Below the pieces are notes generated by a model. It had not been told where the DNA came from and did not search any database. It worked only from the letters and a program-made list of their open reading frames with translations. From Pseudomonas phage PhiPA3, in sequence record HQ630627.1: DNA of 64,000 nucleotides; one strand, 5' to 3'. Below are positions 5,097 through 58,702 of the stretch, one piece after another (the stretch's first letter is position 1; each line of letters opens with the position of its first letter). The position numbers and the translations under genes were made by a program.

Positions 5097-5103
5097 CATA
5101 CTG

Positions 5104-5131
5104 CCCCTCCTTCGGGAGGGGCCTTATGCTG
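5104..5131 (+). terminator. GC hairpin (GCCCCTCC-TTCG-GGAGGGGC) followed by TTATGCTG box; terminator and/or late-promoter unit
   Basis: perfect inverted repeat then conserved TTATGC box about 35 nt upstream of next start codon; motif recurs >=15 times in window. Confidence 0.6.
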
Positions 5132-8019: not shown

Positions 8020-8273
8020 CGACATAAAGCCCTCCCCAAAGGGAGGGCCATTATGCTGTCTAGAAGTAACGATCGGTCGTCATGAGTAAATTCAATATTC
8101 ATATTAAGAATCTTAGAGACATCATCACTTAATGATCTAAAATTATTAATATCTATTTTTTGATTATCTAGTTTATCCCGAATTTTTATTAGATGTTCTT
8201 CTATCAATGGACCTAAGTCCCGCTTGACATTAACATCCAATACCTCATTAGAGATTTTTATCGTATGTGGCAT
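7920..8273 (-). CDS. doubtful small ORF in AT-rich island
   Basis: ATG at 8273 inside AT-rich segment, but reading frame runs through the 8028-8057 hairpin and into the 3' end of the 7348 gene; only the first ~65 codons look gene-like. Confidence 0.2.
   Translation of the reverse strand: MPHTIKISNEVLDVNVKRDLGPLIEEHLIKIRDKLDNQKIDINNFRSLSDDVSKILNMNIEFTHDDRSLLLDSIMALPLGRALCRYAILPTSSKHGLHPMCVPVLPDALKSSLLIVV
8028..8057 (+). terminator. hairpin GCCCTCCCC-AAA-GGGAGGGC + ATTATGCTG box
   Basis: same hairpin+TTATGC architecture as 5104. Confidence 0.55.
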
Positions 8274-9889: not shown

Positions 9890-9897
9890 CGAAATAA

Positions 9898-9925
9898 ACC
9901 CTCCCATTATGGGAGGGTTTTATGT
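9898..9925 (+). terminator. hairpin ACCCTCCC-ATTA-TGGGAGGGT + TTTATGTC; sits between convergent genes (bidirectional terminator candidate)
   Basis: inverted repeat directly after 9889 stop and 12 nt from stop of minus-strand 9937 gene. Confidence 0.55.
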
Positions 9926-9936
9926 CAATGATTATT

Positions 9937-26326: not shown

Positions 26327-27607
26327 ATGGCACTTGAACAACAACCGCCGTGCAACGTCAATGACGAGCTGGCCGATACTATCATTGAACCCAATGATGA
26401 AATCATCGAAGACTCCAGCGATTTCGTGAATGTGGATCCTGAAGTAGAAGTACTGAACGATGAGGCTGAAGAACTTGCTTCGGTTAATGAAGCTCTGGAA
26501 GCTTATTCGGTACTTCTGAAGCAAGCCGGTGAGAAAGGCATTAACCGACAGACTGCTGCCATCATGGCAGTAGGTATGCGGAACATTGACCGTAAACTGG
26601 GTTTTGATAATCCTGGTTTTGGTTTGGAAGAATTTAACTCAGCTACGCCGCGTGATGGTCGTCAACAGGTAGTTATCTCCATTGAAGACATCAAAGAACG
26701 TGGTAAAGTGCTGTTTGAAAAACTTAAAGAGTTTTTCAACAAGCTCATGGCGGTGGCTAAACAGGTTTGGGAACGGGTTGCAGGTGCACGTGTTAAAACA
26801 GAACGTAAAGCACAATATCTGTTGACTGCTATTCCAAAATTCCCTGGATATCCTGGTGGTAAATTCCGTGGGGAAGTTCCACCTGTACCGGCTGGCGTCC
26901 GTTCTAATCTGCCGAATCTTGCCGATAACAGAAAAGAAGCTACAGACAAAGACAGTTTTGAAGTTGTGATCAATACCCCTGCGCCCGTGTTTGCAGATGG
27001 TAAAAATACCTACGATAACATCGATCGTGAAAAGCGATATATCAAACTGCTGTCTAATGGTCTTCCGCGGTTCTATCGTGATATCTTTGTAAAGGTTCGT
27101 GAAGTTATTCGTAGCGGTAATGACGATTCTGATCTGATGGTCTCCATTCTAGATTACGTTCATCGGGCTGCTGAACTCGTATTGAAGACTGGTCTGGCTG
27201 GCGAATCACTGCCGGGTAATCGGCAGTTAGTCTGGGATAAAGAAGCCCTGAGTTTTGCACTGGTAGAATCTGACGGGACTGTTCCAGAAAGCATTACTCT
27301 TGACCTGCGTCCGAATACCCGCCTTAAAGCACTGGCGAAAGATATTCACAGTTTCAGCGGTGAGCCATGGACAGCAGATCGTGAGAAAGCCATGAAAGAA
27401 GTTTCTGGTGATTATCAAGCCGTGGTTTCTGATCTCAACCGTGTCTTTGCAGATGATGTTGAACGTGCACAGAGACTGGCTGGGGCGATCATGACACTGA
27501 TGCAGAAAGTTTATAAGCCTGGGCTGTTTGCTAATGTTGAGGTCGCTGTCGTTCGCGCACTTTCCGCCAAGTTGGAAATTGTTGAAGCAGAACTTGCGAG
27601 CTACTAA
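26327..27607 (+). CDS. inner-body-like paralog
   Basis: track ORF 26231 trimmed to ATG 26327 (MALEQQPP) downstream of TTATGC box; LEAYSVLLKQAGEKGINRQTAAIMAVG...FNSATPR; C-terminal LSAKLEIVEAELASY. Confidence 0.5.
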   Translation: MALEQQPPCNVNDELADTIIEPNDEIIEDSSDFVNVDPEVEVLNDEAEELASVNEALEAYSVLLKQAGEKGINRQTAAIMAVGMRNIDRKLGFDNPGFGLEEFNSATPRDGRQQVVISIEDIKERGKVLFEKLKEFFNKLMAVAKQVWERVAGARVKTERKAQYLLTAIPKFPGYPGGKFRGEVPPVPAGVRSNLPNLADNRKEATDKDSFEVVINTPAPVFADGKNTYDNIDREKRYIKLLSNGLPRFYRDIFVKVREVIRSGNDDSDLMVSILDYVHRAAELVLKTGLAGESLPGNRQLVWDKEALSFALVESDGTVPESITLDLRPNTRLKALAKDIHSFSGEPWTADREKAMKEVSGDYQAVVSDLNRVFADDVERAQRLAGAIMTLMQKVYKPGLFANVEVAVVRALSAKLEIVEAELASY

Positions 27608-27614
27608 ACATATT

Positions 27615-27643
27615 GCCTCCCTTCGGGGAGGCTTTATGCCGTC
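27615..27643 (+). terminator. hairpin GCCTCCC-TTCG-GGGAGGC + TTTATGCCGTC
   Basis: hairpin+TTATGC. Confidence 0.55.
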
Positions 27644-34191: not shown

Positions 34192-34202
34192 GACAACATA
34201 AT

Positions 34203-34234
34203 AGCCTCTCCGTAATGGAGAGGCTATTATGCCG
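34203..34234 (+). terminator. hairpin AGCCTCTCC-GTAA-TGGAGAGGCT + ATTATGCCGG
   Basis: hairpin+TTATGC; ATG of the box equals track start 34229 and is probably not a real start. Confidence 0.55.
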
Positions 34235-35929: not shown

Positions 35930-37348
35930 ATGTCACTCTTTGTTGAAGAGGAAGAACCACTTCCTAAGAACCCCGAAGTTGATCCGGTGGTACCTAAAGC
36001 CAGGCCAGATACTTTCCGTGGTATTGCGGTTGATACCAAGTTTATTCCACGCAGCTCTATGCTCAGGTGGATTAACGGTGCGAACTGGACCGGTACGTAC
36101 TTTGCACAGAAGCTTGACGAAACACAAGAGCCAACTCCATTGGCTCTACATCGTCAGCCTCCATACCAACAGTACATTCGAATCAACGGCATCAACATCA
36201 AGGTCAACCAGACGCTGGATATTTCCCAAGACGAGCGCATTCGCACATTCTCCGTTACGGCCACTGGTCACACCTATCCTGGTCTGACTGCTAACTACGG
36301 GGATATGTGGGTAGCCGATGTGGGAGATGGTCGGATTGGTTTATTCACTGTTACTTCTGCTCGTCGAGAAACATTCCTACGAGATTCAACTTACGCCATT
36401 GAACTGAAGATGGTCAGTTTCCTGACTCCACAACAAATGGAGGATTTGGAAAGGAAAACCATTCTAACGTATTACTGGTCGGCAAGTGCCCTAGGGGCCG
36501 GTTGTAATCCCTATGTAACTGAGCAGCAACAAGAAGACAGTAAGAACTTTGCCGCACTGCGTTCCGAAATCATTCGTCGATATATCACTGATTTCTACTC
36601 CAAGGAACACAGTACATTTCTGGTGCCCGATCAACTAGCTAAAACCTACGATCACTTTGTCACCAAGGCCATGCTAATGATGGTTGATACGCAGACTGAT
36701 GGTCGCATGCGTTTGGTGAAACTGTTGAACGTAATGTCGGAACCGGTGATGTCGCAACCTACTGTTTGGGATGCACTGGTGCGTCAGGATTCTGGTCGCT
36801 TCTGTGATAATACCGAACGTGCACATCTTGTGAATACGCGTATTTCCAGATGGCGTCCTGAATTACAGGCAATTGGTTTCTCGGGGATTGCTCGATTTGT
36901 ATTCCCAATTGATGCTCCGACAGATGTAGATTCGCAATACGACGGTGAAGACCGTGCACGACCAGAAGGTATTCCTTTCCATGAAGGACGTCCTCGTAGA
37001 CCTGAACCAGGTCCATGGCGTTCTCAGGAAGAACGTGATCTAGAATGGTTCAAACGTAAGCCACAACAATTGGTTGACGTAGCAACTGCCTGGAAGACAC
37101 CCTCCGACATTAAGCCTGTCGTAGTGGATGACTACTATGTATTCTCGCAATCATTCTACTACCAAACTCCAGTTACCCAATCTAAATTGGAACAGCTGGC
37201 TTGGCAGATGATCAACAATGAGCCTTTAAACGTTGACTCGCTTCGTGCAGTCACTAAATGTTGTTTGGGTTGGGATAACCTTGAAAGGTTCTATTACCAC
37301 CCGGTTTTGATTGCATTGCTGAAATACGCAGTGAGGATTGGTACATGA
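35930..37348 (+). CDS. hypothetical virion protein
   Basis: RBS AAGGAATAGG; 472 codons. Confidence 0.5.
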   Translation: MSLFVEEEEPLPKNPEVDPVVPKARPDTFRGIAVDTKFIPRSSMLRWINGANWTGTYFAQKLDETQEPTPLALHRQPPYQQYIRINGINIKVNQTLDISQDERIRTFSVTATGHTYPGLTANYGDMWVADVGDGRIGLFTVTSARRETFLRDSTYAIELKMVSFLTPQQMEDLERKTILTYYWSASALGAGCNPYVTEQQQEDSKNFAALRSEIIRRYITDFYSKEHSTFLVPDQLAKTYDHFVTKAMLMMVDTQTDGRMRLVKLLNVMSEPVMSQPTVWDALVRQDSGRFCDNTERAHLVNTRISRWRPELQAIGFSGIARFVFPIDAPTDVDSQYDGEDRARPEGIPFHEGRPRRPEPGPWRSQEERDLEWFKRKPQQLVDVATAWKTPSDIKPVVVDDYYVFSQSFYYQTPVTQSKLEQLAWQMINNEPLNVDSLRAVTKCCLGWDNLERFYYHPVLIALLKYAVRIGT

Positions 37349-37932
37349 ATATCAAGCTCTGTGATCGCCGAACTGCTGCATGGCGTCTATTTCATCTACA
37401 GTTTCCTGCCGTGGCTCCGTACATGGCAGGATTCTCAGCTGAGTACCTGCGTGACAACGCTATCAACGGTACGGGTGATAAATATGTAGACCGAGATAGG
37501 CAGAACGAACTCGTTCGTACAAGCCTAACAGCCGCGGCTATGGCCATGTTGATGGGTCAAGGTTACACCATTGGTTTGTTGAATTTCCAGGATTGCGTAC
37601 AAATTTACCATGACATCCAGCAGCACTTCGCTGACTGGCGTGATCAATGTGTATTTGGTGCGCATCCCAGTGGATTCCCGCCGATTGAAGACCTCCGTCT
37701 ATTTGAAGATCTGGCTTTAGAGGTCCATGGCCTGGCCAAAAAACTCGAACCAGCAGGGCGTAATTCCAGTCATGTCTTCGATAGCCTTTTGATGATGGCT
37801 CGCAAACGAAACCTCACTGCAACCAACCGATACTTCGATGGACTCCAAAAGAACGATGGGCAACTCAAGCCATACGTTTCTATAGTGGACGATATTGAAC
37901 GGTACGTAGTGGAGTCGCAAGATGTCCGTTGA
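37345..37932 (+). CDS. hypothetical protein
   Basis: ATGA overlap with upstream gene. Confidence 0.5.
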   Translation: MNIKLCDRRTAAWRLFHLQFPAVAPYMAGFSAEYLRDNAINGTGDKYVDRDRQNELVRTSLTAAAMAMLMGQGYTIGLLNFQDCVQIYHDIQQHFADWRDQCVFGAHPSGFPPIEDLRLFEDLALEVHGLAKKLEPAGRNSSHVFDSLLMMARKRNLTATNRYFDGLQKNDGQLKPYVSIVDDIERYVVESQDVR

Positions 37933-39307
37933 TAAAACGCTACTCATGCGTGAAGTGAATAATGTTATTCAGTCTGGTGATGGACATTACAACTTCCGCA
38001 TGGAGATAAAGATCCTTGCTAATAAGAAATGGATCACTCCAGTTCGGTTGGATCATTATCGCCTAGTGCGTGACTATTCATCTGGACAAGTGGGTGATGA
38101 TCGTACAGTAGAGTTCCTGATGAACTACGGGGACTTTGCCTACGACATCCTACCTTATCGTGATAACCTCATTGTGGAGTACACTGAAGTTCCGTTACGG
38201 GAAGTAAATTCTGCGCGGGACTGGGACAAGCGTTCGACTACGAAACGCTATCGGGGTATCCTCAACATGAGTGGTCAATCAAACCCTGCGTTATCTTCTA
38301 AGAACTCATTGCTGCAATCACGTGAAGCATTGAATCAGATCTCGATGATCCCCATTCAGATGCAGCTCGTAGATGAATTGACTTACCGTGTTATGATGGC
38401 GTCGTATGGCAACACATTTGTGAACATGACGACTAAAGACATGGTAATCGCATCACATCACGAGGTCTTTGCGGCATTGGGTGGCACGGATGATCAACGT
38501 TTATTGGGTTGGGATATTGCCGATGGCTGGAATCCAGATGTTCATTACCAGATCGGTTTGCCAGATGGTATCCGCTTAGCTGATATCCCTCGATTTCTAC
38601 AGAACGATGAAGGTGGAATTTACCCCACTGGGATGGGTCGATATATTCAGAATCAGATCTTCTACATGTATCCGTTGTTTGATACAACTAGATTCAATAA
38701 GAAGACTAGGGTTCTGAACCTGATCAATATTCCCAGTGACCGTTACGAAGGCGCTGAGAAGACGTATAAGAGCACTGACCGACATGTGACGGTGATAGCC
38801 ACCGGTAATGCATCTTCGCTCGATGACGGGCTTGCTACGGTCTTACAACAGGGTAATGGTGTTCGCTTTGGTAATGCTAACAACCTGTTGACAGATCAAG
38901 CTGTCACCAAAGACAACAAGATGTTAATGGACCGGGCATCTAACTTGTATGAAGTCAATATTGGAAATCTCCAAACTGGCTTTAACAACACCCGATGGGC
39001 AAATGAGCGGGTAACCGCCAACCCTTATAAACAGTATTCGATTATGGCACAACGCCAAGGCCAGCAATTGGATCTGGAATGGGTTAACGGTAATCCCGAT
39101 GAATTGTACCCTGGAATGCCAGTGAAGTTTTTTACCATATCTGGCGACACTGTAAAAATTTACCACGGTACCCTATTAGGTGTAGGTGAACAACGAACCG
39201 CTTCTGATGCGTCTCCAGTAGTCAATCGGCATGTCAGTAAGTGTCAGTTGTCCGTCTTTGTCAACCGGTTTGAAATCGTAGATGACACTATAAGCCCCAC
39301 CCCTTAA
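37922..39307 (+). CDS. hypothetical virion protein
   Basis: 461-codon ORF overlapping upstream stop. Confidence 0.5.
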   Translation: MSVDKTLLMREVNNVIQSGDGHYNFRMEIKILANKKWITPVRLDHYRLVRDYSSGQVGDDRTVEFLMNYGDFAYDILPYRDNLIVEYTEVPLREVNSARDWDKRSTTKRYRGILNMSGQSNPALSSKNSLLQSREALNQISMIPIQMQLVDELTYRVMMASYGNTFVNMTTKDMVIASHHEVFAALGGTDDQRLLGWDIADGWNPDVHYQIGLPDGIRLADIPRFLQNDEGGIYPTGMGRYIQNQIFYMYPLFDTTRFNKKTRVLNLINIPSDRYEGAEKTYKSTDRHVTVIATGNASSLDDGLATVLQQGNGVRFGNANNLLTDQAVTKDNKMLMDRASNLYEVNIGNLQTGFNNTRWANERVTANPYKQYSIMAQRQGQQLDLEWVNGNPDELYPGMPVKFFTISGDTVKIYHGTLLGVGEQRTASDASPVVNRHVSKCQLSVFVNRFEIVDDTISPTP

Positions 39308-39330
39308 GTGGGGTGGGTTTATACCAGGTG
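39293..39330 (+). terminator. hairpin CCCACCCC-TTAAGT-GGGGTGGG + TTTATACC (variant box)
   Basis: hairpin+box; box has TTATAC instead of TTATGC. Confidence 0.5.
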
Positions 39331-39336
39331 ACCACA

Positions 39337-39768
39337 ATGACAAACATTTATATAGCAATCGACCCGGCGTGGTCCTATGGGTTCCTAAGCGCGATATCTA
39401 ATCACATTACGTTAGATTTTAGCACGCAGAGCCGTCTCTACGAGCACGCGATGGATTTCATTCGTCTACGCCATAACTTCAACTGGAATCATGACGCTAT
39501 TGCTTTTAATACTGGTTATAACAGTATCATGATGGCGTTGCAAGAATATCCAATTGCTACGTCGTTCTTTGAGGGCATGTATCGGCAACTCTTCAATAAT
39601 TACCATCTTGCATTAAATAGCTTGGGTGGAGAGATTGCAAAGATAACAACCATTACCGATAGTGAAGGGCTGATTACCGGCATCGTCTGTCAGGTAGTGG
39701 AAACAATTCCACATATTCAAAGTGTTTTTAACCCTATATCACAGATGGGAATTAACTCCACCTGTTGA
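39337..39768 (+). CDS. hypothetical protein
   Basis: track ORF 39313 (GTG, inside hairpin) trimmed to ATG 39337 (MTNIYIAID). Confidence 0.5.
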   Translation: MTNIYIAIDPAWSYGFLSAISNHITLDFSTQSRLYEHAMDFIRLRHNFNWNHDAIAFNTGYNSIMMALQEYPIATSFFEGMYRQLFNNYHLALNSLGGEIAKITTITDSEGLITGIVCQVVETIPHIQSVFNPISQMGINSTC

Positions 39769-39778
39769 GGTATAAGGG

Positions 39779-39919
39779 ATGCAAAAGGTACAGCAAACTG
39801 AAGAACTGCTTCCTCGTGAACAGAAGCCTCAGGTGCCCAAGAGCCTCATCGACTTACCGCACCTGGTTGTAATCTTCGTGGTGGCTCTTGCGGTCACTAT
39901 CTATCACAACGGCTTTTGA
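39779..39919 (+). CDS. small single-TM protein (46 aa)
   Basis: hand-called: MQKVQQTEELLPREQKPQVPKSLIDLPHLVVIFVVALAVTIYHNGF; below track size cut-off. Confidence 0.4.
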   Translation: MQKVQQTEELLPREQKPQVPKSLIDLPHLVVIFVVALAVTIYHNGF

Positions 39920-39928
39920 GGTAGCAAT

Positions 39929-40099
39929 ATGTTCAACTTCTGGGATGATTCCAAAACCGAAGCAGAAAACGATCAGGCATCGAAGAAAGCTCGACATAAT
40001 AAGGATATCCTTCAGTTCCTGACCGCAGGCGTGGCGCTGGTGACAGGCGTTATTACCTGTGCTGTAGCGAGCAAAAAGTTGTTTGATGAAATGACTTAA
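39929..40099 (+). CDS. small single-TM protein (56 aa)
   Basis: hand-called: MFNFWDDSKTEAENDQASKKARHNKDILQFLTAGVALVTGVITCAVASKKLFDEMT; RBS GAGGTAGCAATATG. Confidence 0.4.
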   Translation: MFNFWDDSKTEAENDQASKKARHNKDILQFLTAGVALVTGVITCAVASKKLFDEMT

Positions 40100-40112
40100 T
40101 TTGGCGCTCAAT

Positions 40113-40145
40113 CTAATGAGTGGGTGATGTCCGCTCACTCATTAG
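40113..40145 (+). promoter_or_regulatory. 10-bp inverted repeat CTAATGAGTG...CACTCATTAG upstream of macro-domain gene
   Basis: perfect palindrome arms 22 nt before AGGAG RBS of 40168 gene. Confidence 0.35.
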
Positions 40146-40167
40146 ACAAGTTTAAGGAGCCATTTAA

Positions 40168-40650
40168 ATGGCTGAATTCATAATCGGTAAGGATATCTTC
40201 CAGGAGCCCGGAGATCTTTACGTCATAACCGTCAACACCGTTGGCGTGATGGGTGCCGGCGTTGCCAAAGCCTTTAGAGAGCGTCACCCTGACCTCTTTC
40301 AAAGGTACAAACATGATTGCAAGATGAAGATCATCCAGATCGGTCATCCTGTCATCTACAAAGGAGATGACAATAAACATTACATGATGTTCCCCACTAA
40401 GGAACGATGGCAAGATCCGTCTCTACCTTCTTACATATCTGCTGGTTTACAGTGGATGGTCGACAATATCGACGAGAATGCAGACGATGATTTCATCGAT
40501 TCCAAGTGGAAGATCGTCATGCCACCCTTAGGGTGTGGACATGGAAAACTACACTTCCCAGATGTCAGGGCAATGATTGAAGAGTTCTCTCAACACATTC
40601 CTAATCAACTGGTTGTGGTCTATCCTCCCTGGATGGAGTCCGTTGAGTAA
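40168..40650 (+). CDS. macro-domain protein (ADP-ribose binding/processing)
   Basis: GDLYVITVNTVGVMGAGVAKAF aligns with macro N-x-A-N-x-x-L-x-GGGV-x-x-AI motif; IVMPPLGCGHGKLHFP aligns with VAFPAISTGVYGYP motif. Confidence 0.6.
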   Translation: MAEFIIGKDIFQEPGDLYVITVNTVGVMGAGVAKAFRERHPDLFQRYKHDCKMKIIQIGHPVIYKGDDNKHYMMFPTKERWQDPSLPSYISAGLQWMVDNIDENADDDFIDSKWKIVMPPLGCGHGKLHFPDVRAMIEEFSQHIPNQLVVVYPPWMESVE

Positions 40651-40661
40651 TGCAACATAAT

Positions 40662-40693
40662 GCCCCACCTAACGGGTGGGGATTATGCCGCTA
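40662..40693 (+). terminator. hairpin GCCCCACC-TAAC-GGGTGGGG + ATTATGCCGCT
   Basis: last plus-strand hairpin+TTATGC unit before the early cluster. Confidence 0.55.
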
Positions 40694-40732
40694 TTGGCTG
40701 AGCAGATTCGTATATTCAAAACATTTTAAACA

Positions 40733-40756
40733 CTATATTACAAATGTGATATTAGC
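40733..40756 (+). promoter_or_regulatory. early-promoter-like box CTATATTACAAATGTGATATTAGCC
   Basis: near-identical copies at 41893 and 58681; about 25 nt upstream of first small gene; TATATTAC resembles early promoter consensus reported for phiKZ. Confidence 0.5.
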
Positions 40757-40781
40757 CTAGTTAATCAACGGAGTAATCCCC

Positions 40782-40889
40782 ATGGGCATTGCTAAGTTCT
40801 GCTTTAAACTCGGTCTGGCAGTCGTGATCATTAACGCAGCCTGGTGGGCCGTTGATACCATCTTCGAAGAGGAAACCACAGATGTCTGA
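40782..40889 (+). CDS. small TM protein (35 aa)
   Basis: hand-called MGIAKFCFKLGLAVVIINAAWWAVDTIFEEETTDV. Confidence 0.35.
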   Translation: MGIAKFCFKLGLAVVIINAAWWAVDTIFEEETTDV

Positions 40890-40986
40890 CTACATCAAGT
40901 TCAACCTGAAAGTAGTACTGGGCATAGTAGCCTGTTACTATGCTTTGAAAACCACCAACTTCATCGTAGAAGAAATCATCGGTTAA
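40882..40986 (+). CDS. small TM protein (34 aa)
   Basis: hand-called MSDYIKFNLKVVLGIVACYYALKTTNFIVEEIIG; overlaps previous by 8 nt. Confidence 0.35.
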   Translation: MSDYIKFNLKVVLGIVACYYALKTTNFIVEEIIG

Positions 40987-40991
40987 GTGTC

Positions 40992-41321
40992 ATGAACTGG
41001 TACTTCAAATCAGTTCTGGCACTTACAGGGGTTATGACCGTTTTGGGTGCAGGCATAGGCCTTCTCGCCTGGCGACATATCTCTACGATCAACAAATTGT
41101 ATTCCCAAGGTTGGGAGTACCTCAACAAGATCCATGACCAACTTCTGAGTGATGGGTACTACCATCATTCGCACTGGCAACGCCGCAAGAGTCTCTTGTG
41201 GCAAGAAGCAGCAGCTGGAATCGAAGAGATTTTAGCTGCGTACCCCGCGAGCATAAAAGACCATGTTCGCGAACACCTACGCTACGATTCACGTCGGATC
41301 GTTAACTGTGATACTCACTGA
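40992..41321 (+). CDS. small membrane protein
   Basis: track ORF; N-terminal TM VLALTGVMTVLGAGIGLLAW. Confidence 0.5.
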   Translation: MNWYFKSVLALTGVMTVLGAGIGLLAWRHISTINKLYSQGWEYLNKIHDQLLSDGYYHHSHWQRRKSLLWQEAAAGIEEILAAYPASIKDHVREHLRYDSRRIVNCDTH

Positions 41322-41336
41322 AAAGGAAACTGCACC

Positions 41337-41492
41337 ATGAAACAAGCTCTCATCATCGCTGGTATCGTTACCTCCATCGGCGCTGCTGCCTTCGCCGGCT
41401 ACAAGTACTTCACCGGCAACGACGCCGACTCGGCGGGCGACACCCCGGCAGCTCCCGAAGCCGCCACTGAAGAAACCCCCGCTACTGAATAA
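41337..41492 (+). CDS. small TM protein (51 aa)
   Basis: hand-called MKQALIIAGIVTSIGAAAFAGYKYF...; RBS AAAAGGAAAC. Confidence 0.4.
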   Translation: MKQALIIAGIVTSIGAAAFAGYKYFTGNDADSAGDTPAAPEAATEETPATE

Positions 41493-41535
41493 GTAGCGGT
41501 TCACCTTCCACACCATTTCAAGTAAGGAAAGCAAT

Positions 41536-41838
41536 ATGTTCGGTTCTCTCGTAAAAGGTGCTCTGCTGATGGTCGTCGGAGCGGCTGGTCTGACTGCCAT
41601 GATGGTGTGGTCGGATGACGCTATCTCGAATGAGCTCCTGCGTGAGTTCAACGATTACGTCAAGTCTCTACCCGAAGATCTCGTCGGTGAAGAGCGTAAC
41701 AAAACCATCCATAGCTATGTCGAGCGTCGCATGAAAGAAATCCGCAGCGCTCTCAGCATGGCTCGTAACCTGTGTGAATTGGAGGAAAAGGTACAAGCCT
41801 TCCTCCAGAAGAACATCACTCCGGTTCCGGCAGAGTAA
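41536..41838 (+). CDS. small membrane protein
   Basis: track ORF; RBS AGGAAAGCAATATG; TM LLMVVGAAGLTAMMVW. Confidence 0.5.
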   Translation: MFGSLVKGALLMVVGAAGLTAMMVWSDDAISNELLREFNDYVKSLPEDLVGEERNKTIHSYVERRMKEIRSALSMARNLCELEEKVQAFLQKNITPVPAE

Positions 41839-41844
41839 CCCCTA

Positions 41845-41862
41845 GGGGGCCTTCGGGCCCCC
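41845..41862 (+). terminator. hairpin GGGGGCC-TTCG-GGCCCCC (no TTATGC box)
   Basis: GC hairpin directly after stop, followed by second early box. Confidence 0.5.
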
Positions 41863-41892
41863 ATCTCCTTTGTAATGTATCTTTTCTGAAGG

Positions 41893-41916
41893 CTATATTA
41901 CAAAAGTGATATTACC
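41893..41916 (+). promoter_or_regulatory. early-promoter-like box CTATATTACAAAAGTGATATTACCC
   Basis: second copy of box; 23 nt upstream of RBS of 41939 gene. Confidence 0.5.
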
Positions 41917-41938
41917 CAATTCAATCGAGGATTTAATC

Positions 41939-42091
41939 ATGAAAGCAATTGCCCTGGTATTCGTAGGTATGGTTCTTGGCGGCCTGTTCGTTAACGCTAA
42001 GTACGATACCCCCAAAGCATCTGAAGAGCAAGTTGTACTCGGTACCCGGATCGGTTCTCTGGGTCAAGAGATCTTGGTTGTTAAGAACTAA
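41939..42091 (+). CDS. small TM protein (50 aa)
   Basis: track ORF 41906 trimmed to ATG after GAGGA; MKAIALVFVGMVLGGLFV. Confidence 0.45.
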   Translation: MKAIALVFVGMVLGGLFVNAKYDTPKASEEQVVLGTRIGSLGQEILVVKN

Positions 42092-42130
42092 GTAATACCC
42101 CCTTCAAATAAACAATAGGAAAATACAATC

Positions 42131-42487
42131 ATGGCTCGCTCCCTCTCTGACTACGTCGTAGAAGAAATCGTTTATCCGACCGTCATCGGTCTGTCTATCG
42201 CCGGCGTTCTGATCGGCATCAATGAGGCTGTCAAATGGTGGAACCGTCCCACCGATAAGGACATCGTCGAAGAATACTGTATCAAGATCGATGAGATCGT
42301 TCAGCGCCACAAGAACCGTGTCGTCGCTCGCGAGGGGGATCGCATCATCGCCGTCAACACCGCTTACCGTGCCCTGATGCTTCGCCTCGCCGTGGAATAC
42401 CAGGGTAACGAACTGGAAGAAGTTCGTAAGACCATCCGTGCACATTACGAAATGCGTGCGAAAGAAAACGGTTGGGAAATCAACTAA
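42131..42487 (+). CDS. small membrane protein
   Basis: track ORF; TM VIGLSIAGVLIGI. Confidence 0.5.
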   Translation: MARSLSDYVVEEIVYPTVIGLSIAGVLIGINEAVKWWNRPTDKDIVEEYCIKIDEIVQRHKNRVVAREGDRIIAVNTAYRALMLRLAVEYQGNELEEVRKTIRAHYEMRAKENGWEIN

Positions 42488-42552
42488 GCGCGATGGGGTA
42501 GGCGAAAGCTTACCCCCTGTTATACCTTCAATTTTTAATAGGAATCTTCAAA

Positions 42553-42933
42553 ATGAAAACAGTCTCGATCGTGGCCATCACTATTTCAGCTGTAGTCGCT
42601 GTTGGTTTCACCGCAGCGGCTATCTATACCCACAACCGTAACGAAGCTCGCATCGAAAAACGCGATGCATTCATCGACAGCATTTGCGGCGATCTCGCCG
42701 AAGCAGTTGCTAAGTACAAGCGTACCGCTGACTACGACAAACTCGTGGACAGTCTGCGTGAAGACGGTCTCTCTCCGGAAGACCTCGTCAATCGCGTGCG
42801 CTTTGCTGTAGCCGCCAAACTGCTTCCGCGGTTCGAGAAGCGTTTGGAAAAGAACAAGGATGAATACTCCGAAGAAGACTTCGGTATCATCCTGTCCCGT
42901 CTCCACACCTTCACCAAGCGAGTTATCTACTAA
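42553..42933 (+). CDS. small membrane protein
   Basis: track ORF; N-terminal TM IVAITISAVVAVGFTAAAIY. Confidence 0.5.
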   Translation: MKTVSIVAITISAVVAVGFTAAAIYTHNRNEARIEKRDAFIDSICGDLAEAVAKYKRTADYDKLVDSLREDGLSPEDLVNRVRFAVAAKLLPRFEKRLEKNKDEYSEEDFGIILSRLHTFTKRVIY

Positions 42934-43115
42934 TGAAATACCTCACTCAAGCCCTCGTTGTAATCTTCCTCGGTGCCAGCGTTGCTGTGGGTAACGCTTA
43001 CGTCGATCTGACCAAGCCGGAAGGCAAAGTCAGTAAAGAAACCCAAGCACTCTGCGACAAGCGTGACCAGAAGTGTCAGCAGTTTGTGATCGTCTTCCAG
43101 GAGAAGTTCAAGTGA
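42933..43115 (+). CDS. small secreted/TM protein
   Basis: track ORF; signal-like ALVVIFLGASVAVGNA; four Cys. Confidence 0.45.
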   Translation: MKYLTQALVVIFLGASVAVGNAYVDLTKPEGKVSKETQALCDKRDQKCQQFVIVFQEKFK

Positions 43116-44428: not shown

Positions 44429-44658
44429 GCCTCAACTACAGCGGCTACAGCGTTACCTTTAACGTTACGCACAACGGTGTCCAAAAAGCGTTCACTGGGT
44501 TCACTGAACCGACTGGTGATGCTGAGGAGGACAAGAAGATCGCTACTCGTAAAGCCATGGAGCAATTCATGGCCTCCGAGCAGTTCGGTCAGATGACCTA
44601 TGGCTTGATGGACGAGTTCAACATCAAGGTCACCACGCTGGTACACACCAGCATGTAA
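44425..44658 (+). CDS. hypothetical early protein
   Basis: track ORF; ATGA overlap. Confidence 0.45.
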   Translation: MSLNYSGYSVTFNVTHNGVQKAFTGFTEPTGDAEEDKKIATRKAMEQFMASEQFGQMTYGLMDEFNIKVTTLVHTSM

Positions 44659-44725
44659 AGAGTAATATACGTGTACTCGTATCCTAAACAGATACGAGTG
44701 CATTATTTTATTCCGTGAGGTAGGT

Positions 44726-50027: not shown

Positions 50028-50452
50028 TGAGTCTGGAAAAAAGAGATGAAGCGGTAATTTACACCCATGTTGAAACCGGTGGATTGTACTACCGTAACGG
50101 TATTGCCGAAGGTGGTCATGGAAGACAAGTGGTGTTCACCAGCTACTTCGGCGGTAATGTGATGTACATGAGCGAGGCTGATTTCCAAACGGTAATGAAA
50201 CCAGCTAAAACATACGGCTTACGATTCGCTCGGACCTGGGCACCAGCCAAGTGGATAATGGTTATGTTCGCTGGTCTCATCGTTAGTCTTACCTACTATT
50301 CGATTTCTGGTAAGGTGGTCAGTGTCAATAAGTACGCAGAAGCGCTGACACTCATCATCGTAATTTCCAGTATCATGCGTTATCCGATCACATGGCTGTA
50401 TTTCTGGAAATACAATGGGCGTGAGAAAGGTATCGCTTTCTTCAAAGACTAG
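50027..50452 (+). CDS. membrane protein (2 TM)
   Basis: track ORF; ATGA overlap; TM WIMVMFAGLIVSLTYYSI and ALTLIIVISSIM. Confidence 0.5.
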   Translation: MSLEKRDEAVIYTHVETGGLYYRNGIAEGGHGRQVVFTSYFGGNVMYMSEADFQTVMKPAKTYGLRFARTWAPAKWIMVMFAGLIVSLTYYSISGKVVSVNKYAEALTLIIVISSIMRYPITWLYFWKYNGREKGIAFFKD

Positions 50453-50537
50453 GGGAATTCGACGCTGATGGTTCTCGCGTTATTCATGGACGTCCTGCGT
50501 TAATTCGGTCCGGTTTCACCGGGTCTGTAACCTCCAA

Positions 50538-50582
50538 CTGGGAGCCCTTCGGGGCTCCCTTTTATTTCCTTCTTTTTTTTTT
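50538..50582 (+). terminator. intrinsic terminator GGGAGCCC-TTCG-GGGCTCCC + T-rich tract
   Basis: GC hairpin followed by TTTTATTTCCTTCTTTTTTTTTT. Confidence 0.65.
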
Positions 50583-50606
50583 GTTTTAGGCTAAGACGAC
50601 ATAAAG

Positions 50607-50645
50607 GATAGGGAGAAGCGGTACGTCATGTCCGCTTCTCCCTAT
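50607..50645. repeat. perfect 14-bp inverted repeat ATAGGGAGAAGCGG-(11 nt)-CCGCTTCTCCCTAT in non-coding region
   Basis: read directly; lies in 0.8-kb gene-free zone. Confidence 0.6.
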
Positions 50646-51227
50646 TGCAGCTCCCACGGCCTGATAGGAACCACATAATAACCGGCATCAGATATCTTGA
50701 GCTTCATTTGTGGATGCTCCTCTTGAGCTTAGCATTTTTCACTTCCAGATCTCCAATAACCACAATTGTTCGGCTTACAGGTTTCCAGTCAGGTAGATTA
50801 CCAGCAGTAGGGTATCTAACTTAAAGGAAATCGCAGCTTTGTCTTCACGTAGTATTACTACAGCTGAGTATATTTTTTAATCAATGTCTATTGAGTATTG
50901 TTTTAATAGAGGTTTTTGAAGATTATACTGGGGTTAGTTATGATTCTGTAGACGAAGGAAAAGGATCCTCCGGAGGAGGGGGGTTTTATTTAATAATAAA
51001 CAGAGTTACGTTAGTAACTCATTCCTTATTCTTCTCTTATAAAGTCCTTAGTCTGTTAAACTAAAATCCTTATTCCTAAGCGTAAGCTAAATATACTACA
51101 AGCCTCCCCTCAAAGGGAGGCGTTTATGTTGTATTATATTTTTGTTTAAGTTATTATAAATGTCGACGCTAAGGCCTCTATTTTGCGTTTCTATGCATTA
51201 TCTCCATTAAAGGGTACCGATGGCCAT

Positions 51228-51258
51228 TACGGCATAAAGCTCCCCGTAGGGAGCCGTA
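51228..51258 (-). terminator. minus-strand hairpin GGCTCCC-TACG-GGGAGC + TTTATGCCGTAA
   Basis: reverse complement of 51225-51260; directly downstream of minus-strand 51261 gene. Confidence 0.5.
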
Positions 51259-51260
51259 TG

Positions 51261-51671
51261 TTAAACTACACCAAATACTAGGTCGTAACCACGTTTAGCA
51301 CCATTGCTGGTAATAGCACGGGCATCACTGAGGGTGTAGGACTGTGGAGTGGTAGCGTCTTCGTTAGTAGCGAAGTCGATAATGTAGCCAGCTTGGAACG
51401 CATGTCCCCAACCACTACGAACTTCACCGTTTATTGCAGTACCGAAAACTTTCTGCCATTCTTCACTGGTAACGCGCATGACGTCCAGTAGAACCCATTG
51501 ACGAGCTACTACGAGAATATTGATCGGCTCAGCCTTAATGAACGCTTTGGCAATAACGGTACGCAGTTCTTCCAGCATCGCTTTAACACGATCACGGTAT
51601 TGTTGACGTTCTTTATCTACTTTAGCCATCTGGTCCAGTTCATCAACACTGGGGTATACGTCACAGAGCAT
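51261..51671 (-). CDS. hypothetical protein
   Basis: track ORF, co-oriented with replication module. Confidence 0.5.
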   Translation of the reverse strand: MLCDVYPSVDELDQMAKVDKERQQYRDRVKAMLEELRTVIAKAFIKAEPINILVVARQWVLLDVMRVTSEEWQKVFGTAINGEVRSGWGHAFQAGYIIDFATNEDATTPQSYTLSDARAITSNGAKRGYDLVFGVV

Positions 51672-58509: not shown

Positions 58510-58622
58510 GCTGGAAAGGGAACACTCCGATACATGGAGAATGGCAACGTCCGTTATCTTGAAGACGGAGTGGCCCGCCGCTTAGACACTCCCGTGATCT
58601 AACGCGGTAAAAGAACGCATAG

Positions 58623-58655
58623 GCCCGCCCCGAAAGGAGCGGGCTTTATGCCGTC
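58623..58655 (+). terminator. hairpin GCCCGCCCC-GAAA-GGAGCGGGC + TTTATGCCGTC
   Basis: same hairpin as 16082 unit. Confidence 0.55.
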
Positions 58656-58680
58656 AAGGCCAGTGTAAAAAATCTCACAT

Positions 58681-58702
58681 CTATATTACGTTGGTGATAA
58701 GC
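58681..58702 (+). promoter_or_regulatory. third early-promoter-like box CTATATTACGTTGGTGATAAGC
   Basis: matches 40733/41893 boxes at CTATATTAC and GTGATA. Confidence 0.4.

What the first reader, a model, noticed from the sequence alone, without database searches (positions are those of the whole stretch)
40113..40650. Phage macro-domain protein with its own palindromic operator-like site, at the late/early boundary
VNTVGVMGAGVAKAF and PPLGCGHGKLHFP match the two glycine-rich ADP-ribose-binding motifs of macro domains. A phage macro domain could remove ADP-ribose marks placed by host defence toxins (DarT-like DNA ADP-ribosylation, or other ART-based systems), or hydrolyse ADP-ribose-derived signals. 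A 10-bp perfect palindrome sits just upstream.
Basis: partly seen in the sequence, partly recalled or inferred. Interest (0 to 1): 0.6.

Follow-up and report, generated by a model that had tools for sequence, protein, structure and literature searches.

The report
Known phage anti-DarT macrodomain, AdfM

Summary
The ORF at 40168-40650 (+) encodes a 160-aa macrodomain. It is 100% identical to PhiPA3 gp108 and 63% identical to phiKZ gp104.

This family was published as AdfM (anti-DarT factor macro; Morgan et al., Cell Rep 2026, PMC13309987). That paper shows:
- phiKZ AdfM removes DarT2-made thymine-ADP-ribose from ssDNA.
- The protein is imported into the phage nucleus.
- A PhiPA3 gp108 deletion mutant is restricted by DarTG2.

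The paper's Cas13 guide for PhiPA3 gp108 matches window 40168-40198 exactly.

Checks made here agree. There is a Pfam Macro hit. The DarG models match over their macrodomain half only. The AlphaFold model (pLDDT 95) is closest to the DarG macrodomains 5M3E and 5M3I. The catalytic residues N23 and K78 are invariant.

The "10-bp perfect palindrome" is really an inverted repeat with 11-nt perfect arms (40112-40122 and 40136-40146) and a 13-nt spacer. As RNA it folds into a 15-bp hairpin. It is conserved upstream of adfM in phiKZ-like phages, with compensatory changes and sense-strand G·U pairs. It occurs once in the window. It therefore looks like an RNA stem-loop in a polycistronic early mRNA, not a DNA operator.

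The gene lies between two early-promoter-like motifs and ends at a phiKZ-type terminator, just after a block of virion genes.

Verdict: already known, low interest.

The parts
39296..39325 (+). Terminator-like GC-rich hairpin (CCCACCCC-TTAAGT-GGGGTGGG) followed by TTTATACC, at the end of the upstream virion-gene block (stop codon of ORF 37922-39307).
   Evidence: Hairpin list. It resembles the phiKZ hairpin+TTAT terminator type described in PMC10914365. The upstream ORFs are homologs of the 201phi2-1 virion proteins gp162 and gp164. ORF 35930-37348 has Pfam head-tail joining domains.
39713..39750 (+). Early-promoter-like AT-rich motif (ATATTCAAAGTGTTTTTAACCCTATATCACAGATGGGA). It is the inferred start of the transcription unit that contains adfM.
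   Evidence: It is a direct repeat of 40712-40749 (79% identity). TATAT(T/C)AC sites with the same context lie at 39735, 40734, 41894 and 58682 on the + strand and 44669 on the - strand. The same motif sits upstream of 201phi2-1 gp166 and gp168. phiKZ-type early promoters are AT-rich elements centred near -10 (PMC7598289). This is inferred, not measured.
39779..39919 (+). Small ORF of 46 aa with a hydrophobic C-terminal half. First gene of the inferred unit.
   Evidence: It has a homolog in PA1C, annotated there as similar to PHIKZ102.1.
39929..40099 (+). Small ORF of 56 aa with one hydrophobic segment. It is conserved directly upstream of adfM.
   Evidence: It is 40-42% identical to 201phi2-1 gp166 and to the PA1C ORF that precede their macro genes.
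40112..40146 (+). The perfect arms are 40112-40122 and 40136-40146. As RNA the stem extends to 15 bp (40112-40126 with 40132-40135 added to the right arm) and the loop is 40127-40131.
   Evidence: z = -5.4. It is present at the same place in PA7/SL2 (phiKZ-like), Psa21, PA1C, 201phi2-1 and six metagenomic jumbo-phage contigs. Across 8 sequences 98% of cells are paired and 7 of 13 pairs show compensatory changes; 0 of 500 shuffles reach the observed percentage paired or covariation score, and 1 of 500 reaches the count of 7 compensatory pairs; slid controls reach at most 53%. The sense strand is more stable than the antisense strand in all distinct sequences but one. There is no Rfam match and no T-run or TTAT tail.
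40154..40159 (+). Shine-Dalgarno sequence AAGGAG, 8 nt before the ATG. It lies outside the hairpin.
   Evidence: Read from the sequence. The GGAGCC core is conserved in most of the relatives.
40168..40650 (+). adfM (PhiPA3 gp108), a 160-aa DarG2-like macrodomain and DNA ADP-ribosyl glycohydrolase. The N23 codon is 40234-40236 and the K78 codon is 40399-40401.
   Evidence: Family and structure matches. 100% identity to the PhiPA3 protein. 63% identity to phiKZ gp104. The published Cas13 guide matches 40168-40198. N23 and K78 are invariant in 33 homologs. Function from PMC13309987.
40663..40692 (+). phiKZ-type intrinsic terminator: CCCCACC-TAACG-GGTGGGG followed by A-TTATGCCGCT.
   Evidence: TTATGCCG occurs 7 times against 1.4 expected in the window, and at 5 sites it directly follows a GC-rich hairpin. 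The equivalent hairpin plus TTATGCCG follows the macro gene in 201phi2-1 and Psa21. It resembles the published phiKZ terminator motif BCCYCCCCHWWDGGGRRGGBYTTATKYYGT (PMC10914365).
40712..40749 (+). Next early-promoter-like motif (ATATTCAAAACATTTTAAACACTATATTACAAATGTGA). It starts the following unit of small ORFs.

Best explanation
The window is from Pseudomonas phage PhiPA3, a nucleus-forming jumbo phage (chimallivirus). ORF 40168-40650 is its gp108, the protein published as AdfM.

AdfM is an orphan copy of the macrodomain half of the DarG2 antitoxin. Host DarT2 toxins ADP-ribosylate thymines in single-stranded phage DNA. [quoted passage not shown] Replication and packaging can then proceed in DarTG2-carrying hosts.

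What is shown and what is inferred:
- Shown by others: de-ADP-ribosylation in vitro and rescue of DarT2 toxicity, for the phiKZ ortholog. Nuclear localisation, and DarTG2 sensitivity of the deletion mutant, for PhiPA3 gp108 itself.
- Shown here: identity, fold, active-site conservation, orphan architecture and synteny.
- Inferred here: the gene is the last cistron of a short unit. The unit starts at an early-promoter-like motif (39713-39750), carries two small hydrophobic ORFs and ends at a phiKZ-type terminator (40663-40692).
- Inferred here: the inverted repeat just upstream is a conserved RNA stem-loop inside that mRNA. It probably modulates read-through, processing or stability. It is not a DNA operator.
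For: Identity:
- P0001 is 100% identical over 160 aa. It is named as a PhiPA3 protein and sits on a 309,208-bp contig.
- The Cas13 guide published for PhiPA3 gp108 matches 40168-40198(-) exactly.

Family:
- Pfam Macro, E 2e-9.
- NCBIfam DarG, E 1e-39, over model positions 7-149 of 338.
- PADLOC DarG, E 2e-38, over positions 8-146 of 329.
- PDB DarG macrodomains 5M3I and 5M31, E about 1e-22.

Fold:
- AF2 model with alignment A1 has pLDDT 95.1.
- Foldseek top hits are 5M3E, 5M3I, 5M31 and 7OMU (E 1e-15 to 1e-13, TM 0.78-0.84), followed by TARG1.

Active site:
- N23 and K78 are invariant in 33 homologs. They equal phiKZ AdfM N23/K78 and Thermus aquaticus DarG N22/K80.

Orthology and synteny:
- 63% identity to phiKZ gp104.
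- Homologs of gp99-gp102 lie upstream, as in 201phi2-1, Psa21 and PA1C.

Function from the literature:
- PMC13309987.
- bioRxiv 10.1101/2024.03.21.585822, which shows PhiPA3 gp108 is imported only into its own phage's nucleus.

Hairpin as RNA:
-.
Against: - No biochemical assay has been reported for the PhiPA3 protein itself. The in vitro hydrolysis data are for phiKZ gp104.
- The transcription-unit model rests on motif similarity only. No PhiPA3 transcript ends were available to me.
- The hairpin's role is not determined. The covariation test used only 8 related sequences, and a bulged A was removed by hand from 5 of them to put all in one register.
- A more distant contig (L015) has a canonical T-tailed terminator at the same position. 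Termination or attenuation therefore remains possible for the PhiPA3 hairpin, although it lacks such a tail.
Confidence: 0.93

Rival explanations
1. The protein is a general ADP-ribose-metabolite enzyme, such as an Appr-1''-p phosphatase or an O-acetyl-ADP-ribose deacetylase. Alternatively it is a protein de-mono-ADP-ribosylase of the MacroD or TARG1 type, acting on host or phage proteins rather than on DNA.
For: Homologs are annotated 'phosphatase' or 'Appr-1-p processing protein' (PHROG 335; records). TARG1 structures are the next-best fold matches. NCBIfam 'ADP-ribose-binding protein' is a faint hit (E 0.004).
Against: DarG models and structures fit far better than any other macro class: E 1e-39 against 0.004, E 1e-22 against 0.02, and E 1e-15 against 1e-9. 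The phiKZ ortholog removes thymine-linked ADP-ribose from DNA and neutralises DarT2. The PhiPA3 deletion mutant is specifically restricted by DarTG2 (PMC13309987). Extra substrates are not excluded.
Confidence: 0.04
2. The inverted repeat at 40112-40146 is a double-stranded DNA operator. A dimeric regulator binds it and gives the macro gene its own transcriptional control.
For: The arms are an 11-nt perfect inverted repeat. The outer half-sites, TAATG and CATTA, and the 5' flank CAATC are sequence-conserved across phages.
Against: The inner 8 bp of the stem change between phages while staying complementary; 7 of 13 pairs show compensatory changes. Loop length and sequence vary from 4 to 8 nt. 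Several pairs are G·U and so exist only in sense-strand RNA, which makes the sense strand 4-7 kcal/mol more stable than the antisense strand in most phages. There is a single copy in 64 kb. No promoter motif lies in the 20 nt between the repeat and the ATG, and the intergenic region has no TATG late-promoter core (PMC7598289). The neighbours scanned have no DNA-binding domain.
Confidence: 0.05
3. The upstream hairpin is a transcription terminator or attenuator. It ends most transcripts after the small ORFs and lets only a fraction read into adfM.
For: It is a stable hairpin directly after the stop codon of ORF 39929-40099. A distant relative (L015) has a canonical hairpin plus T-run at the same position. 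201phi2-1 and phiKZ have many terminators, including ones without the main motif and ones that give conditional read-through in 5' UTRs (PMC11512511; PMC10914365).
Against: It has no T-run and no TTAT tail, the feature of the phiKZ-type terminators that are found elsewhere in this window. The consensus terminator scan did not report it. adfM has no room for its own promoter downstream, so efficient termination would silence a gene that the phage demonstrably uses.
Confidence: 0.25

Closest known systems
AdfM (anti-DarT factor macro): phiKZ gp104, PhiPA3 gp108, Asesino gp217, Goslar gp83 (Morgan et al., Cell Rep 2026, PMC13309987)
   Same: It is the same protein. The ORF is 100% identical to PhiPA3 gp108 and 63% identical to phiKZ gp104. 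It shares the N23/K78 active site, the roughly 160-aa single-domain architecture and the position downstream of the gp99-gp102 homologs.
   Different: Nothing differs at the protein level. The conserved upstream RNA-type hairpin, the inferred early transcription unit and the co-conserved small hydrophobic ORF are not discussed in that paper. A text search of it for 'hairpin', 'early gene' and 'expressed early' found nothing relevant.
DarG2 antitoxin macrodomain of DarTG2 toxin-antitoxin systems (Thermus aquaticus 5M31/5M3E, M. tuberculosis 5M3I, Thermosipho africanus DarTG 7OMU)
   Same: Same macrodomain fold (TM about 0.8, 31-34% identity). Same catalytic Asn and Lys. Same chemistry, which is removal of thymine-linked ADP-ribose from ssDNA.
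   Different: It has only the N-terminal half. It matches positions 7-149 of the 338-position NCBIfam DarG model and scores 136 bits against a cut-off of 250. It lacks the C-terminal DarT-binding domain and has no adjacent darT gene. It is encoded by a phage and used against the host system.
AdfN, an orphan NADAR-type DarG1-like enzyme of T4-like phages (PMC11825919)
   Same: Same strategy: a phage carries an orphan antitoxin-like hydrolase that erases DarT marks from its DNA.
   Different: The fold is unrelated (NADAR, not macro). It acts on guanine-ADP-ribose made by DarT1, not on thymine-ADP-ribose made by DarT2.
TARG1/C6orf130 (4J5S and related entries)
   Same: It is the next-closest structural class (E 1e-9, TM about 0.7), with a catalytic lysine at the equivalent position.
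   Different: Only 21% identity. TARG1 is a eukaryotic protein/terminal ADP-ribose glycohydrolase.
phiKZ-type intrinsic terminators (GC-rich hairpin followed by TTAT; Putzeys et al. 2024, PMC10914365)
   Same: The hairpin after the adfM stop codon (40663-40692) fits this class, as do other sites in the window.
   Different: Its stem is AT-rich at the base, it is longer, and it lacks the TTAT tail.

Membership tests
AdfM (chimallivirus anti-DarT macrodomain) | DarG2-like macrodomain fold | tested here: met
   Pfam Macro hit. The AF2 model has pLDDT 95. The top Foldseek hits are the DarG macrodomains 5M3E, 5M3I and 5M31.
AdfM (chimallivirus anti-DarT macrodomain) | Active-site Asn23 and Lys78 (Thermus aquaticus DarG N22 and K80) | tested here: met
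   N23 and K78 are invariant in the 33-sequence alignment A1. They align with phiKZ gp104 N23/K78 (PMC13309987) and with the FPTK lysine of DarG.
AdfM (chimallivirus anti-DarT macrodomain) | Orphan single-domain protein with no DarT-binding domain and no neighbouring darT | tested here: met
   The protein is 160 aa. Only the first ~150 of the 329-338 positions of the DarG models are matched. Ten neighbouring ORFs have no DarT or other toxin domain.
AdfM (chimallivirus anti-DarT macrodomain) | Encoded by a nucleus-forming jumbo phage, orthologous and syntenic with phiKZ gp104 | tested here: met
   100% identity to the PhiPA3 protein. The published guide RNA matches exactly. It is 62-68% identical to phiKZ-like phages. 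Synteny with gp99-gp102 homologs is kept.
AdfM (chimallivirus anti-DarT macrodomain) | Hydrolysis of DarT2-made thymine-ADP-ribose on ssDNA, and protection against DarTG2 | not testable with these tools
   Published: in vitro activity for phiKZ gp104, and DarTG2 sensitivity of the PhiPA3 gp108 deletion mutant (PMC13309987).
AdfM (chimallivirus anti-DarT macrodomain) | PicA-dependent import into the phage nucleus | not testable with these tools
   Published for PhiPA3 gp108-sfGFP, which enters the PhiPA3 nucleus but not the phiKZ nucleus (bioRxiv 10.1101/2024.03.21.585822; PMC13309987).
DarG antitoxin (NCBIfam NF048014 equivalog; type II TA system DarTG) | Full-length match above the curated cut-off, including the C-terminal DarT-binding domain | tested here: not met
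   The score is 136.4 bits against a cut-off of 250. Only model positions 7-149 of 338 are covered.
DarG antitoxin (NCBIfam NF048014 equivalog; type II TA system DarTG) | Adjacent darT toxin gene | tested here: not met
   The flanking ORFs are small hydrophobic proteins and virion-protein homologs with no DarT domain.
DNA operator (palindromic binding site of a dimeric regulator) | Dyad-symmetric dsDNA sequence that is conserved as sequence and associated with a promoter or a regulator | tested here: not met
   The inner stem covaries rather than being conserved. There are sense-strand-only G·U pairs. It is a single copy. No promoter motif is adjacent and no regulator was found nearby.
phiKZ-type intrinsic terminator | GC-rich hairpin followed by TTAT(G/T)YYGT | tested here: not met
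   This row refers to the upstream hairpin at 40112-40146, whose tail is GACAAGTTT. The feature is met by the downstream hairpin at 40663-40692.

The most novel reading that the evidence does not exclude
The conserved stem-loop upstream of adfM has an invariant CAAUCUAAUGAG 5' side, a covarying inner stem and sense-strand G·U pairs. It may be an undescribed cis-regulatory RNA that sets AdfM dosage or timing. It could do this as a conditional attenuator, as a processing or stability signal, or as the binding site of a phage RNA-binding protein in the polycistronic early mRNA. It is shared by the Phikzvirus, PhiPA3, PA1C, Tepukevirus and Serwervirus lineages.
Probability: 0.35. Interest if true: 0.3.

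Novelty: already known. Interest (0 to 1): 0.12.

Why it matters
AdfM shows that the protein shell of the phage nucleus does not fully shield phage DNA. A small DNA-modifying toxin still reaches the genome, and the phage needs an imported repair enzyme copied from the host's own antitoxin. That point has been made and tested in print, including on this exact gene, so this finding adds no new biology about the protein. What remains untouched is how adfM expression is controlled: the conserved upstream RNA-type hairpin, the early-promoter context and the co-conserved small membrane ORF. This is a modest follow-up question.

Tried and rejected
- Megablast of 39300-41400 against the phage collection found nothing. 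PhiPA3 is evidently not in that copy. Identity came from the protein search instead.
- Single-sequence AlphaFold failed (pLDDT 36). It was repeated with alignment A1.
- RNAalifold on a plain MAFFT alignment of the hairpins gave a weak result of -0.56 kcal/mol. A bulged A and different loop lengths had put the two sequence groups out of register. It was redone with a hand register and with a register-fixed alignment.
- Rfam gave no match in 39300-41000 at E up to 1.
- The sigma-70 promoter and canonical terminator scan found nothing at the hairpin. This is expected, because the phage uses its own RNA polymerases.
- A late-promoter reading of the conserved CTAATGAG was rejected. The phiKZ late core is a strict TATG, and no TATG occurs in 40100-40167 (PMC7598289).
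- A repeated-operator reading was rejected. TAATG...CATTA hairpins occur only once in the window, and CTAATGAG is not enriched (4 matches against 2 expected).
- I sought measured transcript ends for the phiKZ and 201phi2-1 orthologs. The supplementary tables of PMC11512511, PMC10914365 and PMC8244752 are not held, and Ceyssens et al. 2014 is not held.

Full report
**What is there.** The flagged interval holds one ORF, 40168-40650 on the + strand, 160 aa. An AAGGAG Shine-Dalgarno sequence lies 8 nt upstream.

The protein matches Pfam Macro over almost the whole profile (E 2e-9, 37.7 bits against a cut-off of 22). It fits DarG-specific models far better than generic macro models:
- NCBIfam antitoxin DarG: E 1e-39.
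- PADLOC DarG: E 2e-38.
- Solved DarG macrodomains of M. tuberculosis and Thermus aquaticus: E about 1e-22.

In each DarG model only the N-terminal macrodomain half is matched. In NCBIfam this is positions 7-149 of 338, at 136 bits against a cut-off of 250. The protein is therefore an orphan macrodomain, not a full antitoxin.

**Fold and active site.** A single-sequence AlphaFold run failed (pLDDT 36). With a 33-sequence alignment (A1) the model reached pLDDT 95.1 and pTM 0.90. Foldseek against the PDB ranks the DarG macrodomains first: 5M3E, 5M3I, 5M31 and 7OMU, at E 1e-15 to 1e-13 and TM 0.78-0.84. TARG1 follows at about 1e-9. N23 and K78 are invariant in the alignment. They correspond to N23/K78 of phiKZ AdfM and to N22/K80 of T. 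aquaticus DarG.

**Identity.** The protein-database search returned a 100% identical 160-aa protein. It is named as PhiPA3 'protein 108' and sits on a 309,208-bp contig. The Cas13 guide RNA published for PhiPA3 gp108 matches window 40168-40198 on the minus strand exactly. The window is therefore part of Pseudomonas phage PhiPA3. Megablast against the phage collection found nothing, so that collection evidently lacks PhiPA3. tblastn found 62-68% identical orthologs in phiKZ-like jumbo phages, including 201phi2-1 gp167, which is annotated 'similar to phiKZ gp104'. Identity to phiKZ gp104 is 63%.

**What is already known.** Morgan et al. [quoted passage not shown] They report the following:
- phiKZ gp104 removes DarT2-made ADP-ribose from a thymine in ssDNA, and an N23A mutant is impaired.
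- It rescues E. coli from DarT2 toxicity.
- GFP fusions of the phiKZ, PhiPA3 and Asesino proteins localise to the phage nucleus.
- Cas13-selected deletion mutants of phiKZ gp104 and of PhiPA3 gp108 lose titre on hosts expressing two DarTG2 systems. They yield about 15- to 80-fold fewer progeny.

An earlier paper showed that PhiPA3 gp108 is imported only into the PhiPA3 nucleus. It used gp104/gp108 chimeras to define the PicA recognition surface. An antisense screen lists phiKZ 104 as a non-core gene that is dispensable on PAO1.

**The 'palindrome'.** There is no contiguous 10-bp palindrome. There is an inverted repeat with 11-nt perfect arms (40112-40122 and 40136-40146) and a 13-nt spacer. 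As RNA it folds into a 15-bp stem with two G·U pairs and a 5-nt loop. The 71-nt context has z = -5.4 against shuffles. Repeats of this quality are enriched in the window, 4 observed against 0.3 expected. Two of the other three are phiKZ-type terminators.

A hairpin sits at the same place, between a small ORF and the macro gene, in these relatives:
- PA7 and SL2 (phiKZ-like)
- Psa21
- PA1C
- 201phi2-1
- six metagenomic jumbo-phage contigs

The 5' flank and outer stem (CAATC-TAATG...CATTA) are sequence-conserved in all of these except 201phi2-1, whose outer stem is TAGAT/ATCTA (PA1C differs at one base, TGATG). The inner 8 bp differ between phages but stay complementary. I removed a bulged A from five sequences to put all in one register. 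On the resulting 8-sequence alignment:
- 98% of cells are paired.
- 7 of 13 pairs show changes on both sides.
- 0 of 500 column shuffles reach the observed pairing or covariation score.
- Sliding the partner columns drops pairing to 36-53%.

The sample is small and related, so this is supportive rather than conclusive. The sense-strand RNA fold is more stable than the antisense fold in all distinct sequences but one. In PhiPA3 the values are -17.0 against -9.7 kcal/mol, because several pairs are G·U.

The element occurs once in the 64-kb window and has no Rfam match. It has neither a T-run nor the TTAT tail of phiKZ terminators. No promoter motif follows it, and the intergenic region has no TATG late core. 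I conclude that it is a conserved RNA stem-loop within a polycistronic mRNA. Its role is undetermined; attenuation, processing and stability are all possible. A dsDNA operator is unlikely. A distant contig (L015) carries a canonical T-tailed terminator at the same position, which keeps the attenuator reading alive.

**Context and the 'late/early boundary'.** Upstream lie homologs of phiKZ gp99-gp102. These include proteins found in 201phi2-1 virions by mass spectrometry and a protein with head-tail joining domains. That block ends in a terminator-like hairpin at 39296-39325.

A 38-nt AT-rich motif at 39713-39750 is repeated at 40712-40749. Related TATATTAC sites lie at 41894 and 58682 on the + strand and 44669 on the - strand. 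The same motif precedes the corresponding genes in 201phi2-1. It fits the description of phiKZ-type early promoters read by the virion RNA polymerase.

After the adfM stop codon there is a GC-rich hairpin followed by TTATGCCG (40663-40692). TTATGCCG is enriched in the window, 7 matches against 1.4 expected, and at five sites it directly follows a hairpin. This matches the published phiKZ terminator motif.

The likely layout is therefore: early promoter, two small hydrophobic ORFs, hairpin, adfM, terminator, next early promoter. It is inferred from sequence only, because the transcript-end tables for phiKZ and 201phi2-1 were not available to me.

**Verdict.** The functional interpretation is right, and the operator idea is not supported. 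The protein is already known and characterised, so novelty is nil and interest is low. The only loose end is the conserved upstream RNA-type hairpin.

Noticed in passing
window 27600-27641, 34197-34234, 40663-40690, 58610-58653 (+) and 51237-51280 (-); variants at 5103-5131, 8029-8058, 9896-9927 and 39296-39325: GC-rich tetraloop-type hairpins followed by (T)TTATGCCG or TTATGCTG recur after genes. TTATGCCG occurs 7 times against 1.4 expected. This is the phiKZ-type terminator. Its tail contains TATG, the strict core of phiKZ late promoters (T-3 A T G+1), so terminator tails could in principle double as late start sites.
   Followed up: partly
window 39713-39750, 40712-40749, about 41860-41910, about 58650-58700 (+) and about 44640-44670 (-): AT-rich early-promoter-like motifs ending in TATAT(T/C)AC. 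Most lie right after a terminator and head runs of small ORFs. The one at 58682 follows the terminator at 58646 by about 30 nt.
   Followed up: partly
window 39929-40099 (+): A 56-aa ORF with one hydrophobic segment is conserved immediately upstream of adfM in 201phi2-1 (gp166) and PA1C (40-42% identity). Psa21 has an ORF of similar size and build there. A functional link to AdfM is not known.
   Followed up: partly
window 40783-43115 (+): Downstream of adfM lies a run of about ten short ORFs (44-126 aa). Most have an N-terminal hydrophobic segment. None of the four scanned has a Pfam hit, and they are poorly conserved even in close relatives.
   Followed up: no
window 50608-50645: A 14-bp perfect hairpin (ATAGGGAGAAGCGG...CCGCTTCTCCCTAT, 10-nt loop) lies in a gene-poor convergent region (50452-51261). 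It sits next to a canonical hairpin plus T-run terminator at 50540-50575. It is one of only four inverted repeats in the window with arms of at least 11 nt, and its role is unknown.
   Followed up: no
L013 (phage Noxifer) 1480-2381: In Noxifer the macro gene overlaps its upstream neighbour, so there is no hairpin. It is followed directly by a gene annotated as an Arc-like transcriptional regulator. This arrangement differs from the phiKZ/PhiPA3 group.
   Followed up: no
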